A stretch of 64,000 nucleotides of DNA from Octopus vulgaris (lineage: Eukaryota). A program made the translations under genes and the position numbers. The notes under the pieces are model-generated. The model saw only the letters and a program-made list of their open reading frames with translations. It was not told where the DNA came from and searched no databases. The stretch lies in contig OX597831.1 in assembly GCA_951406725.2 (NCBI GenBank), positions 78,368,001 through 78,432,000 of the forward strand, read 5' to 3'. This document shows positions 2,898 to 55,947 of the stretch, piece by piece (the stretch's first letter is position 1; every line of letters starts with the position of its first letter).

Positions 2898-3148
2898 TGT
2901 ATCTGAAAGAAGTGTGAAGGGAAAAGAGAAGGAAAGGAAGGAAGAGGAGAGAAAGAAGGAAAATATGTGTTGGTATCTTTGCAACTGGTCTGTCTTTCAA
3001 TAATAAATGATTCTTCGCCATTTCTAAAAGCCAAGAATCATTTACTATTGAAAGAACGACCAGTTGCAAAGATGTCAACACATTTTTCTTCTTTCCTTCC
3101 TTCTTCTTCCTTTCCTTCTCTTTTCCATTGACACCTCTTTCAGATACA
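2898..3148. repeat. Imperfect fold-back inverted repeat (arms ~2898-3015 / 3033-3148) with an extra direct copy at ~2638-2745
   Basis: tctttcaataataaatgattctt ... aagaatcatttactattgaaaga are complementary; similarity extends to tgtatctgaaag / ctttcagataca. Confidence 0.85.
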
Positions 3149-3431
3149 AAAGCACACACGCACACACATACGCACACTCTCTCACTTTCTCCCCATTCCT
3201 CACCCTATTGTACTATCTTATATCTCTCTCCACCCCACGCACTCAATAATACTACAAAAAGAGACAAATTCCTGAAAAAGTTCAATCTGACGACTCCACT
3301 ACAGTGGACGCAAGCGCTAATATATGATATAAAAGAACATGTTGCATATTAATAATTATCTGTAAATATAAAACCGTCCCGATTTCTGAGTACCTCATTT
3401 CTTCTCCAGAACTTCTTATATATATATATAA

Positions 3432-3500
<69 letters not shown>

Positions 3501-3502
<2 letters not shown>

Positions 3503-3900
3503 CGCAGGAGTGGCTGTGTGGTAAGTAGCTTGCTAACCAACCACATGATTCCGGGTTCAGTCCCACTGCGTGGCATCTTGGGCAAGTGTCTTCTGCTATA
3601 GCCCCGGGCCGACCAATGCCTTGTGAGTGGATTTGGCAGACGGAAACTGAAAGAAGCCTGTCGTATATATGCATATATATATGTATGTGTGTGTGTGTTT
3701 GTGTGTCTGTGTCTGTCCCCCTAGCGTTGCTTGAAAACCGATGCTGGTGTGTTTGCGTCCCCGTCACTTAGCGGTTCGGCAAAAGAGACCGATAGAATAA
3801 GTACTGGGCATACAAAGAATAAGTCCCGGGGTCGATTTGCTCGACTGAAGGCGGTGCTCCAGCATGGCCGCAGTCAAATGACTGAAACAAGTAAAAGAGT
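3501..3900 (+). mobile_element. Abundant tRNA-derived CORE-type SINE (family A), full length
   Basis: Head ggcgcaggagtggctgtgtggtaag...gggttcagtccc (A/B-box-like), CORE-like cttgggcaagtgtctt, internal (TA/TG)n, tail ...gactgaaacaagtaaaaga. Many copies in this window. Confidence 0.85.
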
Positions 3901-3925
3901 ATATATATATATATATACGAAACTA

Positions 3926-3959
<34 letters not shown>

Positions 3960-4011
3960 TAGTTTCGTCAGTATTATCTTGAATAATGAGAAGTATCATT
4001 AATAATCTTTT

Positions 4012-4500
<489 letters not shown>

Positions 4501-4879
4501 GTCGGGCTACAGCAAATATTCTGCTGAAATGCCCTGATGCAGTACCAGGCAGTGGCTCTCGTGGCTTCTCATCTTAAATGATTAGAAGTGTTATCATGTA
4601 CATTGTTTTGTCTTTGGTATAAAAGATGGCCTACAGCAAATATTCTGCTCAATACCACAGATTTGCTTGTCAGTTGTTTGACCTTAACCAGTTGAGCATG
4701 TCTCTTAGTGGCTGACGATATGTGCATCTCTGTATTTTATCGGCCCCAGAAGGATCAGAAGCAATGTTAAACTTCAGAACACTAAGTCACGTAATTTAAT
4801 TCTCTTAATCATCGCCCAGTCGCTTTAACGATTCTGTTAACAGAAGAGTTTTAGAAAAAACCCCGAAAAACAGTATCTT

Positions 4880-7845: not shown

Positions 7846-8011
7846 ATGGTTATTTCAATCAGGCGAGCTGAGCTCAAATTCCTTCAGAGTCAACTTTACC
7901 TTTCGCCCATCCGAGGTCGATAAATTAAAAAAAAAAAACAGTTCTATATTTAAGAGATGAGGAATTATGTACCTTATTTACATTATTTACATTTGACAGA
8001 TATTTGTTGTT

Positions 8012-8057
8012 AACACAACGTTTCGGCTGATATACCCTCCAGCCTTCATCAAATGTC
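8012..8057 (-). ncRNA. Minimal type I hammerhead ribozyme motif (C3U variant)
   Basis: Minus strand: gacat TTGATGA a ggctg gagggtatat cagcc GAAAC GTT gtgtt. Stem II ggctg/cagcc, loopless stem III, stem I gacat/gtgtt (with GU pairs). Confidence 0.7.
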
Positions 8058-8116
8058 TTGGGGAAATTTCGAACCTAGGTTCTCAATCCTTAGGTATTAT
8101 TATTATTATTATTATT

Positions 8117-8663
8117 GAGTGAGAGAGCATTGCATGCCATCAAAGTGACACTGGGGTAAAATATACGAAGCCCAATATACCCATCATGACTGCCTGTCTG
8201 ATAAGGGTACACCAGGCACATGCATCACAACCATATGTGCGCGATATGGTGATCTCATATCAAGATAAACAGCACATGACCTTGCAGGTGGGGCCCAGTT
8301 AGAATTTTCTTCAGGTTGAGTAGCCCATCCCGCTCAAAAGGTCCCTGAATAAGGGTTGTTTAAGGATGTTGAAAGAACCACCCATGTTTCCAGAGGTGAA
8401 TTATTCAAACCCCAAAGAATCCCTCTCAACACATGGCTATGATGCTCCCCCACTACTTCTGCTCGTGATCAGAGATGCATATATCGTCAGCCACTAAGGG
8501 ACATACTCAACTGGTTAAGGTCAAACAACTGACAAGCAAATCTGTGGTATTGAGCAGAATATTTGCTGTAGCCCATCTTTTATACAAAGACAAAACAATG
8601 TACATGATAACACTTCCAATCAGTTAAGATCAGAAGCCATGAGAGCCACTGCCTGGTACTGCA
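8117..8663 (-). mobile_element. Non-coding (TAA)n-targeted retroposon (family C)
   Basis: Near-identical to 55451-55947 and partly to 4531-4731. Both complete 3' ends read ...ctctctcactc(aat)n, the 5' ends vary, and both copies sit inside (TAA)n. Confidence 0.8.
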
Positions 8664-8684
8664 TTATTATTATTATTATTATTA

Positions 8685-8750
<66 letters not shown>

Positions 8751-8758
<8 letters not shown>

Positions 8759-8820
8759 CCTGCTTGAAATCGAACTCGGAATCTTGGAGTTAGTAGCCCG
8801 CGCTTTTAACCACTACGTCA
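8751..8820 (-). mobile_element. tRNA-derived SINE head, the putative 5' part of the hammerhead-bearing element 7940-8820
   Basis: Minus strand: tgacgtagtggttaaaagcgcgggctactaactccaagattccgagttcgatttcaagcagg, with A box (TGACGTAGTGG) and B box (GAGTTCGATT) at tRNA-like spacing. Confidence 0.7.
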
Positions 8821-8955
8821 AATGTAAATGATGTAAAAAAAAGCAGTCAAATTGTTGGACCGATATAATCCAATATTCCGCAACCGGTGTGCCGCGGCAC
8901 ACTAGTATGCCACGAAACAACGTTATGTGTATCTCAGTGTAACCTAAATGTGATC

Positions 8956-16471: not shown

Positions 16472-17117
16472 TGTGTGTTTCCCTAAAACTTGAGAACTAC
16501 TCAACCAATTTCATTCAAATTTTACACATGACTTACTTAGGGTATAAGGAGTGTGTTGAGCTGTTCTGTCGCCATTGGGCTCACTGTCAGTGTGATATGG
16601 CGACCAGGCGCTCTGGTCGCCATTGGGCTCACTGTCATTCTTTTGGCTCACTGTCCGCGGCCACGAGACAACAGTGAGCGCTATGGCGACCAGAGCTCGC
16701 TCTGTCGCCATTGGGCTCACTGTCCGCGGCCACGAGACAACAGTGAGCGCTATGGCGACCAGAGCTCGCTCTGGTCGCCATTGTCACTGTCCGCGGCCAC
16801 GAGACAACAGTGAGCGCTATGGCGACATGGTCGCCATTGTGCTCACTGTGTTTCCCTAAAACTTGAGAACTACTCAACCAATTTCATTCAAATTTTACAC
16901 ATGACTTACTTAGGGTATAAGGAGTGTGTTGAGCTGGGCTCTGGTCGCCATTGGGCTCACTGTCCGCGGCCAATGGCGACCAGAGCTCGCTCTGGTCGCC
17001 ATTGGGCTCACTGTCCGCGGCCACGAGACAACAGTGAGCGCTATGGCGACCAGAGCTCGCTCTGGTCGCCATTGGGCTCACTGTCCGCGGCCACGAGACA
17101 ACAGTGAGCGCTATGGC
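16472..17117. repeat. 70-bp self-complementary minisatellite inside a ~376-bp tandem duplication
   Basis: Unit gagctcgctctggtcgccattgggctcactgtccgcggccacgagacaacagtgagcgctatggcgacca (16983 to 17053 = 70 bp). The leader tgtgtttccctaaaacttgagaac... is repeated at ~16472 and ~16847. Confidence 0.9.
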
Positions 17118-17134: not shown

Positions 17135-17135
<1 letters not shown>

Positions 17136-17194
<59 letters not shown>

Positions 17195-17357
17195 AACTGT
17201 CAGCGCGGCAACAACAACAGCAACAGCAGCAGCAACAGCAAGCAGCAACAACAGCAGCAACAGCAACAACAGCAGCAACAACAACAACAACAGCAACAAC
17301 AACAACAACAGCAACAGCAACAACAGCAACACAACAACAGCAACAACAGCAACAAGC

Positions 17358-17391
<34 letters not shown>

Positions 17392-17497
17392 GCAACAGCA
17401 ACAACAGCAACAGCAACAGCAACAACAACAACAACAACAGCAACAGCAACAGCAACAACAACAGCAACAGCAACAACAACAGCAACAGCAACAGCAA

Positions 17498-17529
<32 letters not shown>

Positions 17530-17760
17530 ACAACAACAACAACAGCAACAGCAACAACAGCAACAGCAACAGCAACAGCAACAACAACAACAACAGCAAC
17601 AGCAACAGCAACAGCAACAACAACAGCAACAGCAACAGCAACAACAACAACAGCAACAACAGCAACAGCAACAACAACAACAGCAACAACAGCAACAGCA
17701 ACAACAGCAACAGCAACAGCAACAGCTTGGCAACAGCAGCAACTTGGCAACAGCAGCTTG
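17136..17760 (+). repeat. Long (CAG)n/(CAA,CAG)n trinucleotide array
   Basis: Direct reading. Confidence 0.97.
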
Positions 17761-27204: not shown

Positions 27205-27263
27205 TTACCATATCGGACCGATTTCAGAGTTAGCTACTAAGAGCCCTCTCTTCGTCAGTGATA
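27205..27263 (-). ncRNA. Type I hammerhead ribozyme (inverted copy)
   Basis: Reverse complement of 27568-27626. Confidence 0.8.
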
Positions 27264-27566
27264 CATGAATTATATAAATTTAACCGTTAAAGGTATTTTT
27301 AATATGCTGGCCATTGATAAAATTGTTTTCGAGAAAATATTTTTTTTCGAAAAGAATTTTATCCTCACATTTGATATAAATTTAAGCGTTCACTTCCGGA
27401 CTAACTAACTCACTCTGTGAGAGCCTCAGTTCAAATCGCACGTGCCTCGGATGGGCTGGAGTATTTCTATTTTGGATGTATTTGGGGTACTTAGTCGTGC
27501 CCGTGACTTAGTGTTTGCTTCTTCCATGGGTATGAGTAAGTATCTCATTTATTTCTTTTGCCACAT

Positions 27567-27626
27567 TTATCACTGACGAAGAGAGGGCTCTTAGTAGCTA
27601 ACTCTGAAATCGGTCCGATATGGTAA
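27567..27626 (+). ncRNA. Type I hammerhead ribozyme
   Basis: ttatca CTGACGA agag..ctct GAAA tcggtccg ATA tggtaa. 6-bp stem I, near-palindromic stem III atcggtccgat, cleavage triplet AUA. Confidence 0.85.
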
Positions 27627-55270: not shown

Positions 55271-55450
55271 TAGTACAACACCAAAATAATAATAATAATA
55301 ATAATAACTAGTACAACACCAAAAAAAAAAAACCCCAAATATATGGCACAGAACTTCCAACCTGTTGTCTCTTGTGGTCTCTGGGTGAGACTTGGAGCCA
55401 ACTTGTACAGACATAAAGCAAAAGTCAAACATAGAATAATAATAATAATA

Positions 55451-55947
55451 GTGTTATCATGTACATTGTTTTGTCTTGGTATAAAAGATGGGCTACAGCA
55501 AATATTCTGCTCAATACCACAGATTTGCTTGTCAGTTGTTTGGCCTTAACCAGTTGAGCATGTCCCTTAGTGGCTGACGATATGTGCATCTCTGATCACG
55601 AGCAGAAGTAGTGGGGGAGCATCATAGCCATGTGTTGAGAGGATTCTTTGGGTTTTGAATAATTCACCTCTGGAAACATGGGTGGTTCTTTCAACATCCT
55701 TAAACAACCCTTATTCAGGGACCTTTTGAACGGTATGGGCTACTTGACCAGAAGAAAATTCTAACTGGTCCCCACCTGCAAGGTCATACGCTGTTTATCT
55801 TGATATGAGATCACCATATCGTGCACATATGGTTGTGATGCATGTGCCTGGTGTACTCTTATCAGACGGGTAGTCATGATGAGTATACTGGGCTTCGTAT
55901 ATTTGTACCCCAGTGTCACTTTGATGGCATGCACTACTCTCTCACTC
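55451..55947 (+). mobile_element. Non-coding (TAA)n-targeted retroposon (family C), 5'-truncated
   Basis: Reverse complement of 8117-8612; flanked by (aat)n. Confidence 0.8.

What the first reader, a model, noticed from the sequence alone, without database searches (positions are those of the whole stretch)
7940..8820. Putative tRNA-headed SINE whose body is a hammerhead ribozyme plus a Penelope-like tail
Seen, on the minus strand: a tRNA-like A/B-box head (8820-8751), then (TAA)n into which a family C element has inserted (8117-8663), then a body with the hammerhead gacat-TTGATGA-aggctg..cagcc-GAAAC-GTT-gtgtt (8057-8012), then an AT-rich tail without poly-A ending ~7940. Established: SINEs normally borrow a LINE 3' end. 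Inference: removing the insertion gives a ~300-nt Pol III transcript with a pLTR-type ribozyme, i.e. a SINE that may parasitise Penelope machinery rather than a LINE. This copy has C3U and is probably inactive.
Basis: partly seen in the sequence, partly recalled or inferred. Interest (0 to 1): 0.82.

Follow-up and report, generated by a model that had tools for sequence, protein, structure and literature searches.

The report
Penelope retrotransposon end carrying tRNA promoter
This supposed SINE is the terminal repeat of a Penelope-type retrotransposon that has picked up a tRNA-like promoter, and that promoter likely makes short RNAs which the element copies as SINE-sized insertions by the tens of thousands, and may even drive the full-length element.

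Summary
In detail: tRNA-like A/B-box head, (AAT)n tract split by a 546-nt insert, minimal hammerhead, tail without poly-A. Head and body are one family (26 of 29 head-selected loci collinear; roughly 40,000 insertions), mobilised the Penelope way (inverted 5' arm; 30-40-nt tail on one arm only in 38 of 38 pairs). But it is not a separate SINE. Upstream, the head follows the stop codon of a Poseidon-clade RT-GIY-YIG ORF by 36 nt; downstream, hammerhead and 'tail' run in frame into that ORF's N-terminus. The unit is the element's own pseudo-LTR, and the window holds a decayed solo copy. New: the pLTR carries tRNA-type boxes (none in 56 related loci from other animals). In genome-order samples 24 of 24 box-bearing arms begin within 27 nt of the A box (about 1 expected from truncation), so 85-90% of head-bearing arms are SINE-sized; the ORF strand has no TTTT in 2.7 kb (P 0.02-0.05). 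Best reading: Pol III transcripts from the pLTR give SINE-like copies. Pol III use is untested; public RNA reads were uninformative.

The parts
8816..8840 (+). Inverted 5' arm: 25 nt of the same unit (body positions 113-137), ending about 35 nt short of the tail end; overlaps the head start by 5 nt
   Evidence: (L001 B+[113-137]); same geometry in 35 of 38 inverted pairs
8751..8820 (-). tRNA-like head of the pseudo-LTR, 5'-truncated at the A box; A box 8820-8810 (G3A against the family), B box 8775-8766 (C61 changed to T)
8663..8750 (-). (AAT)n tract, an integral spacer between head and body (median spacer 66 nt in short, 37 nt in ORF-linked arms)
8117..8662 (-). Secondary insertion ('family C'): non-coding repeat found inside (AAT)n tracts, itself ending in (AAT)n; not part of the element
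   Evidence: 42 hits in held sequence, 11 in the 400-kb sample
8096..8116 (-). Rest of the (AAT)n tract; the family's 12-nt linker to the body is missing in this copy
7939..8095 (-). Body = first ~50 codons of the Penelope ORF inside the pLTR; the family start ATG (8086-8084) reads TTG here; 15-nt in-frame deletion
8012..8057 (-). Minimal type I hammerhead: stem I 8057-8053/8016-8012, core with C3U, 5-bp stem II, palindromic ACGT in place of stem III; predicted cut between 8017 and 8016
   Evidence: architecture as in PMC4209133
7939..7973 (-). Penelope 'tail': the last ~35 nt, present on one arm only in inverted insertions
   Evidence: described and explained in PMC11167929

Best explanation
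The feature is a decayed solo pseudo-LTR of a Poseidon-clade Penelope-like retrotransposon whose pLTR carries tRNA-type A and B boxes, and these boxes likely act as an internal RNA polymerase III promoter whose short transcripts are copied by the element's own protein into SINE-sized insertions. Shown: the unit repeats at both ends of a ~2.5-kb RT-GIY-YIG ORF (stop codon, 36 nt, head, (AAT)n, start codon, hammerhead, tail, rest of ORF); insertions have the Penelope geometry; most head-bearing arms start at the head. Inferred: Pol III starts about 13-27 nt before the A box; the protein binds the RNA through the ORF-start region and primes reverse transcription at two sites about 35 nt apart on both nicked strands (by analogy with Anolis Poseidon, PMC11167929), giving one arm with and one without the tail; cDNAs run uncleaved through the hammerhead and end at the RNA 5' end, where a GCCC-AC-GGGC hairpin lets them snap back, join head to head or jump templates. 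The hammerhead is predicted to cut only as a dimer or with protein help and is not needed for insertion. The tRNA-like piece probably came from a SINE head or tRNA gene that landed in the 3' UTR. Family C inserted later into the (AAT)n tract.
For: Collinearity 26 of 29. Of 86 loci, 51 are head-to-head inverted pairs, 34 single, 1 complex; in 38 of 38 pairs with both outer ends in the body only one arm has the full end, the other stops at 124-153 in 35, and this holds for all 11 such pairs among head-selected loci. Two clusters of 3' loose ends recur in organisms B, C and F. Head and/or body directly behind the endonuclease stop in 30 of 30 loci. Body runs in frame into the ORF in L359/L365 and L356; that peptide aligns with P0121 from residue 11 (39%, E 4e-35); RVT_1 over cut-off; tree places the ORF among Poseidon-type hits, away from Neptune (support 100, quick tree). 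5' ends: of 30 genome-order heads, 24 begin at -27..0 of the A box, 6 inside the head, 0 reach the ORF; 30 genome-order stop-codon copies end at -63 to -1551, one end per 540 nt, predicting 1.2 of 24. Exact counts 6421 (head) against 1073 (stop codon), controls 0. Seven read-through loci show a jump from inside the ORF to a head, five of them to its very start (H3-H8). Of 6 read-through copies with an upstream head, 5 begin in or at the head. No TTTT in the 2706-nt column majority (P 0.02-0.05); 1 of 30 composition-matched relatives has none, median 3.0 per kb.
Against: No direct sign of Pol III use: RNA reads lie 1:1 on both strands, follow copy number and show no start or end pile-up. The head does not score as a tRNA. 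The 5'-end step coincides with a hairpin that could stall or fold back cDNA whatever the RNA start. One of 6 read-through copies (L485) extends upstream into the previous ORF end, so longer RNAs existed. The T-run signal is modest and the control homopolymers are not significant either way. No intact copy was seen: best protein matches are about 80-86% identical and mostly broken, median divergence 6-7%. The hammerhead overlaps coding sequence, so its conservation need not reflect catalysis; monomer folding does not give the active fold.
Confidence: 0.63

Rival explanations
1. Ordinary Poseidon element transcribed by Pol II as long RNA; the tRNA-like piece is a dead SINE-head passenger in the 3' UTR, and copies pile up at it because reverse transcription stalls or snaps back at the hairpin, or the RNA is cut there by a tRNA-processing enzyme.
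For: Hairpin sits exactly at the 5'-end cluster; short and long copies share variants; L485 shows tandem read-through; PLE pLTRs are known to hold promoters for downstream copies (PMC6765202); RNA reads show no discrete short RNA.
Against: Both boxes are intact in the column majorities of two subfamilies at tRNA spacing. The cluster is also seen in arms with no inverted partner (e.g. L283, L286, L290, L299). The end rate rises about 50-fold only after the structured head has been copied. Many ends keep the AC loop upstream of the mature-tRNA position, which an RNase P-type cut at that position would remove. TTTT is absent from the ORF strand.
Confidence: 0.27
2. An independent tRNA-derived SINE with its own master genes that took over a Penelope 3' end and parasitises that machinery; ORF-linked heads are recombinants.
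For: 85-90% of head-bearing arms are SINE-sized; solo copies keep both promoter boxes and the priming region and so could seed further copies.
Against: The head is in the ORF-linked state in 28 of 30 endonuclease-selected loci and in both subfamilies (L197). Variant frequencies in genome-order short and long arms agree (H76 G 17 of 24 and 12 of 23; N7 T 16 of 20 and 19 of 21) and no frame-breaking change is shared by short arms; the two short-enriched substitutions are alleles of my search queries.
Confidence: 0.08
3. Chance neighbours or a LINE-mobilised SINE: a head-(AAT)n SINE that targets AAT tracts landed next to an unrelated hammerhead repeat.
For: AAT tracts here do attract other elements (family C; an RLE-LINE-like end in L015/L016).
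Against: 26 of 29 collinear with no AAT tract before the head; Penelope insertion geometry; continuity with the ORF on both sides.
Confidence: 0.01

Closest known systems
Penelope/Poseidon clade PLEs, e.g. Poseidon of Anolis carolinensis (PAc; PMC11167929)
   Same: RT followed by GIY-YIG; ORF starts inside the pLTR around the hammerhead; optional 30-40-nt tail; inverted 5' copy; uncleaved RNA as template; 36% identity to the Anolis protein P0154.
   Different: pLTR carries tRNA-type A/B boxes and an (AAT)n tract; most copies start exactly at those boxes; ORF strand lacks T runs. None of 56 related loci shows A+B boxes behind the ORF.
Minimal type I hammerheads of metazoan PLEs (Cervera and de la Pena 2014, PMC4209133)
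   Same: Short stem I, unpaired base before stem II, palindromic remnant of stem III, GUU cut site; like those behind related ORFs.
   Different: Nothing of note; cleavage not tested here.
Schistosoma Sm-alpha/Sj-alpha SINE-like elements (as reviewed in PMC6765202, PMC2770079)
   Same: tRNA-related Pol III promoter followed by a hammerhead, tens of thousands of copies.
   Different: Those are described as non-coding tandem repeats whose ribozyme frees monomers; no coding partner is named in the passages read. Here the unit is the terminal repeat and ORF start of an autonomous element.
TRIMp3 elements Helenus, Ajax, Cassandra (Kojima 2024, PMC10886601)
   Same: Small-RNA-gene promoter inside a terminal repeat, proposed to arise by SINE insertion.
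   Different: They are non-autonomous LTR elements, and the paper argues that autonomous partners must use Pol II; here the boxes are in the terminal repeat of the coding element, in a different retroelement class.
Metazoan retrozymes (PMC7761336)
   Same: Small hammerhead-bearing repeats proposed to use PLE machinery.
   Different: Retrozymes are promoter-less head-to-tail arrays with canonical hammerheads; this unit has boxes, a minimal ribozyme and coding capacity, and is dispersed.

Membership tests
Penelope-like element, Penelope/Poseidon clade | Single ORF with PLE-type RT and C-terminal GIY-YIG endonuclease | tested here: met
   RVT_1 over cut-off and PLE homologues; endonuclease motifs read from translations, though Pfam GIY-YIG did not hit this divergent domain; column majority holds one 799-codon open frame
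Penelope-like element, Penelope/Poseidon clade | Groups with Poseidon rather than Neptune | tested here: met
   Quick IQ-TREE on 30 rows: Neptune split off at 100; element sister to P0121 inside the group holding the Anolis protein (careful search did not finish; clade names assigned by me from linker motifs and the Anolis label)
Penelope-like element, Penelope/Poseidon clade | pLTR at both ends of the ORF, with hammerhead | tested here: met
   (L383)
Penelope-like element, Penelope/Poseidon clade | Inverted 5'-truncated copy and 30-40-nt tail on one end only | tested here: met
   51 of 86 loci inverted; 38 of 38 pairs asymmetric
Penelope-like element, Penelope/Poseidon clade | Present activity (intact copy) | tested here: inconclusive
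   No intact ORF among the 150 listed matches; only the best candidates were scored
tRNA-derived SINE (SINE2) | Head with A and B boxes at tRNA spacing | tested here: met
   71% over 65 nt to a tRNA-Glu gene in L019, E 0.007; parent tRNA not identified
tRNA-derived SINE (SINE2) | Copies begin at the head | tested here: met
   24 of 24 box-bearing arms in -27..0 (two pairs are duplicates, two pairs are arms of one insertion)
tRNA-derived SINE (SINE2) | Transcribed by Pol III | not testable with these tools
   RNA lay uninformative
tRNA-derived SINE (SINE2) | Non-coding element separate from its autonomous partner, with its own lineage | tested here: not met
   Same unit is part of the autonomous element and encodes its N-terminus; no short-only variants
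tRNA-derived SINE (SINE2) | LINE-derived 3' end, A-rich or repeat tail, target-site duplication | tested here: not met
   Fixed unique end without poly-A or repeat and PLE geometry; target-site duplications were not scanned for systematically
Minimal type I hammerhead | Core CUGANGA/GAAA/UH with stems I and II | tested here: met
   Core intact in 56 of 110 and 33 of 44 aligned arms, all core columns majority-correct; the one frequent non-CpG core variant is at the free N7 position, 22 of 110. This copy has C3U.
Minimal type I hammerhead | Self-cleavage | not testable with these tools
   No pile-up of RNA ends; copies are mostly copied through the cut site
Metazoan retrozyme | Head-to-tail arrays of canonical hammerhead units without promoter or ORF | tested here: not met
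   Dispersed, mostly single or inverted copies with boxes and coding frame

The most novel reading that the evidence does not exclude
An autonomous, protein-coding Penelope retrotransposon that is transcribed end to end by RNA polymerase III from a captured tRNA-type promoter in its pLTR (hence an ORF purged of TTTT terminators), and that with the same promoter makes its own SINE: the first Pol III-driven autonomous retroelement and the first SINE-like family shown to be carried by Penelope machinery.
Probability: 0.3. Interest if true: 0.86.

Novelty: new variant of a known kind. Interest (0 to 1): 0.66.

Why it matters
SINEs are tied to LINEs, and Pol III-promoter terminal repeats are described only in non-autonomous LTR elements, with the stated expectation that coding partners need Pol II (PMC10886601). 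A Penelope element with tRNA boxes in its pLTR shows a route by which a SINE can be born inside its own mobiliser, and gives a ~300-nt natural substrate with thousands of mapped ends for open questions on Penelope priming, inversion and the role of the hammerhead. If the whole ORF is Pol III-made, it raises how an uncapped RNA is translated. It also means SINE annotators will mislabel Penelope pLTRs in this host.

Tried and rejected
Rfam and ARAGORN on the window: nothing; Rfam at E<=10 on a better copy: three chance hits, no tRNA; relaxed ARAGORN hits are noise, since they appear all over unrelated loci. First partner hunt by Pfam GIY-YIG found only Neptune-type families, none sharing sequence with the body. 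A recalled Poseidon thumb motif gave 6 matches against 10 for the control, because this family has a different motif. A profile of Neptune proteins found no PLE in the flanks and random sample then held. Sequencing runs: no RNA holder listed; reads laid on L266 gave equal strands and no end pile-ups. Search for short-only variants: none beyond query alleles. Conservation of the ribozyme between the two subfamilies (no change in core or stem II, two in loop II, one breaking a stem I pair) is too thin to count as selection and overlaps coding constraint. My first idea of a separate SINE with a partner was dropped. Earlier-findings look-ups returned nothing. Lunse et al. 2017 is not held; SINEBase supplements are not readable.

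Full report
Observation. In 200 local shuffles of the window the hammerhead descriptor never hit and the box pair was expected 0.005 times. The window is G000:C18:78368001-78432000 in a 2.8-Gb genome; its repeats look like those of an octopus, which is recalled and was not tested.

One family. The body has 3209 candidates in the genome (40 scored, 30 loci taken) and the head 1887. Of 29 head-selected loci other than the window's, 26 have a same-strand body downstream across an (AAT)n tract. Forty 10-kb stretches taken at fixed positions hold 6 insertions, which scales to about 42,000 (Poisson range roughly 15,000-90,000). A second subfamily has the same layout. The hammerhead core is the majority in both; C3 is present in 96 of 110 and 44 of 44 arms, so the window's C3U is decay. 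At least six coded organisms hold the sequence.

Penelope geometry. Of 86 non-redundant loci (two duplicates dropped) 51 are head-to-head inverted pairs, 34 single and 1 complex. In all 38 pairs with both outer ends in the body, one arm ends at 167-172 and the other stops short, at 124-153 in 35. Body- and tail-selected loci were picked for one full end, but the 11 head-selected pairs behave alike. This is the inverted copy and one-sided 30-40-nt tail described for PLEs (bioRxiv 2021.04.23.441226, passages) and explained by two priming sites in Anolis Poseidon (PMC11167929, first half of the text). The window copy has it too: 8816-8840 is an inverted arm ending at body position 137.

The partner is the element itself. 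Neptune-type PLEs with intact 781-codon frames exist here but share nothing with the body. Several heads shared an upstream extension that translates as a GIY-YIG endonuclease end, with the stop 36 nt before the A box. All 30 loci selected by that coding stretch have head (28) and/or body directly behind it (one is the query and three are near-duplicates). Walking upstream reached L359/L365 and L356, where the body runs in frame through hammerhead and tail into the ORF; L383 is nearly full length with an inverted arm. The peptide encoded by hammerhead and tail aligns with the N-terminus of P0121 (39% over residues 11-205), the closest relative (53%). RT scores over the Pfam cut-off; Pfam missed the endonuclease piece. 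A quick tree puts the ORF with Poseidon-type proteins, including an Anolis one, apart from Neptune (careful search unfinished, octopus rows partial). So head-(AAT)n-body is the pLTR, laid out as in PAc, where the ORF starts in the hammerhead. No intact copy appeared among 150 listed matches.

What is unusual. First, the boxes: both are intact in the column majorities at tRNA spacing. Of 80 related loci from metagenomes I analysed the 56 with long matches; none has an A+B pair behind the ORF, and 37 of them, by my count from the table, had the ORF end and 300 nt or more of flank. Their hammerheads are of the same minimal type with different stem II sequences. Second, the 5' ends: an exact head 20-mer occurs 6421 times and a stop-codon 20-mer 1073 times; 7 of the first 100 heads pair with 7 of the 22 stop matches in that interval, giving about 20,000 head arms, of which about 10-15% reach the ORF. 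In the first 30 heads in genome order, 24 begin at -27..0 of the A box, 6 inside the head and none in the ORF; the first 30 stop-codon copies end between -63 and -1551. The upstream rate (1 per 540 nt) predicts 1.2 such ends among 24; the rate at the head is about 50 times higher. The sample includes two duplicate pairs and two pairs of arms from one insertion. Among the first 30 of 81 tail-to-ORF read-through copies, seven jump from inside the ORF to a head, five to its very start; of six with an upstream head, five begin in or at it and one continues into the previous ORF end. Third, T runs: the 2706-nt column majority of 87 long pieces has no TTTT (P 0.05, 0.03 and 0.02 under three codon nulls); decayed copies carry 0.3-0.7 per kb against 3.25 in Neptune and a median of 3.0 in 30 composition-matched relatives, one of which has none. 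This is suggestive only.

Against a separate SINE. Among 99 short and 67 ORF-linked arms the variants are shared; the two substitutions clearly enriched in short arms are alleles of my queries, a 9-nt in-frame deletion is commoner in long arms, and no frameshift is shared by short arms.

Against Pol III, or not for it. Reads from two RNA runs lie equally on both strands, rise about threefold at the head as copy number does, and show no start or end pile-up, as expected from copies inside host transcripts or an unstranded library. The head does not score as a tRNA; its best tRNA likeness is 71% over 65 nt. The 5'-end cluster coincides with a hairpin, so stalling or fold-back on a long Pol II RNA remains a serious rival.

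Mechanism, marked. Shown: layout, insertion geometry, end distribution. By analogy with PAc: two priming sites, both strands extended, uncleaved template, protein-assisted ribozyme; minimal hammerheads are weak and dimer-dependent in vitro (PMC4209133, first half of the text). Inferred: Pol III start just before the boxes, short transcripts from solo and 3' pLTRs, origin by SINE or tRNA capture. Speculative: Pol III transcription of the whole ORF.

Literature. Ten searches turned up no PLE with a tRNA-type promoter and no SINE carried by a PLE; I judged most hits from the listing only. Read in passages: PMC7761336, PMC6765202, PMC2770079, PMC8967140, PMC4758252. PMC10886601: abstract, passages and discussion. 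PMC13282606: two of three parts and a supplement search, with no mention of this layout. Ohshima and Okada 1994 was seen as a title only; Repbase, Dfam and SINEBase could not be searched, so the family may already carry a name, as a SINE or as a Penelope.

Verdict. Real and abundant; a new variant of a known kind. The structural reassignment is close to certain; the Pol III reading is about 0.6; the all-Pol III autonomous element about 0.3.

Noticed in passing
L091 (G000:C1:20000001-20010000), about 3080-4520 on + and two more copies on -: Head-to-tail array of ~355-359-nt units, each with an identical canonical type I hammerhead (6-bp stem I, 4-bp stem II, palindromic loop 3): looks like a metazoan retrozyme array.
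   Followed up: no
L103, L110, L125:9958, L079: Another dispersed repeat with a U3-A8 variant hammerhead.
   Followed up: no
L131-L134, L139 and the list: Young Neptune-type PLE families: many 781-codon open frames, an overlapping upstream frame of 250-480 codons, U3-A8 or other variant hammerheads, ends next to (TA)n; L139 has a 100% identical 766-nt inverted repeat.
   Followed up: partly
window 8117-8662, 4538-4732, 55450-55947: Family C: ~555-nt non-coding repeat with a fixed 5' end, found almost always inside (AAT)n tracts, 11 hits in 400 kb; no tRNA boxes seen; probably carried by an AAT-targeting LINE such as Dong/R4 (recalled, untested).
   Followed up: partly
L015, L016, L188 upstream of the body: 3' end of what looks like a restriction-endonuclease-type LINE inserted in the element's (AAT)n tract (identity recalled, untested).
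   Followed up: no
window 17135-17743 and 16643-17117: Long CAG/CAA-type repeat (polyglutamine-like) beside 69-70-nt tandem units.
   Followed up: no
window 27258-27573: A CTGACGA...GAAAT motif occurs twice in inverted orientation about 300 nt apart, possibly another PLE-type inverted insertion.
   Followed up: no
L474, L466, L465: Short direct tandem arrays of body plus the first 30-95 nt of ORF, apparently from repeated template jumps.
   Followed up: no
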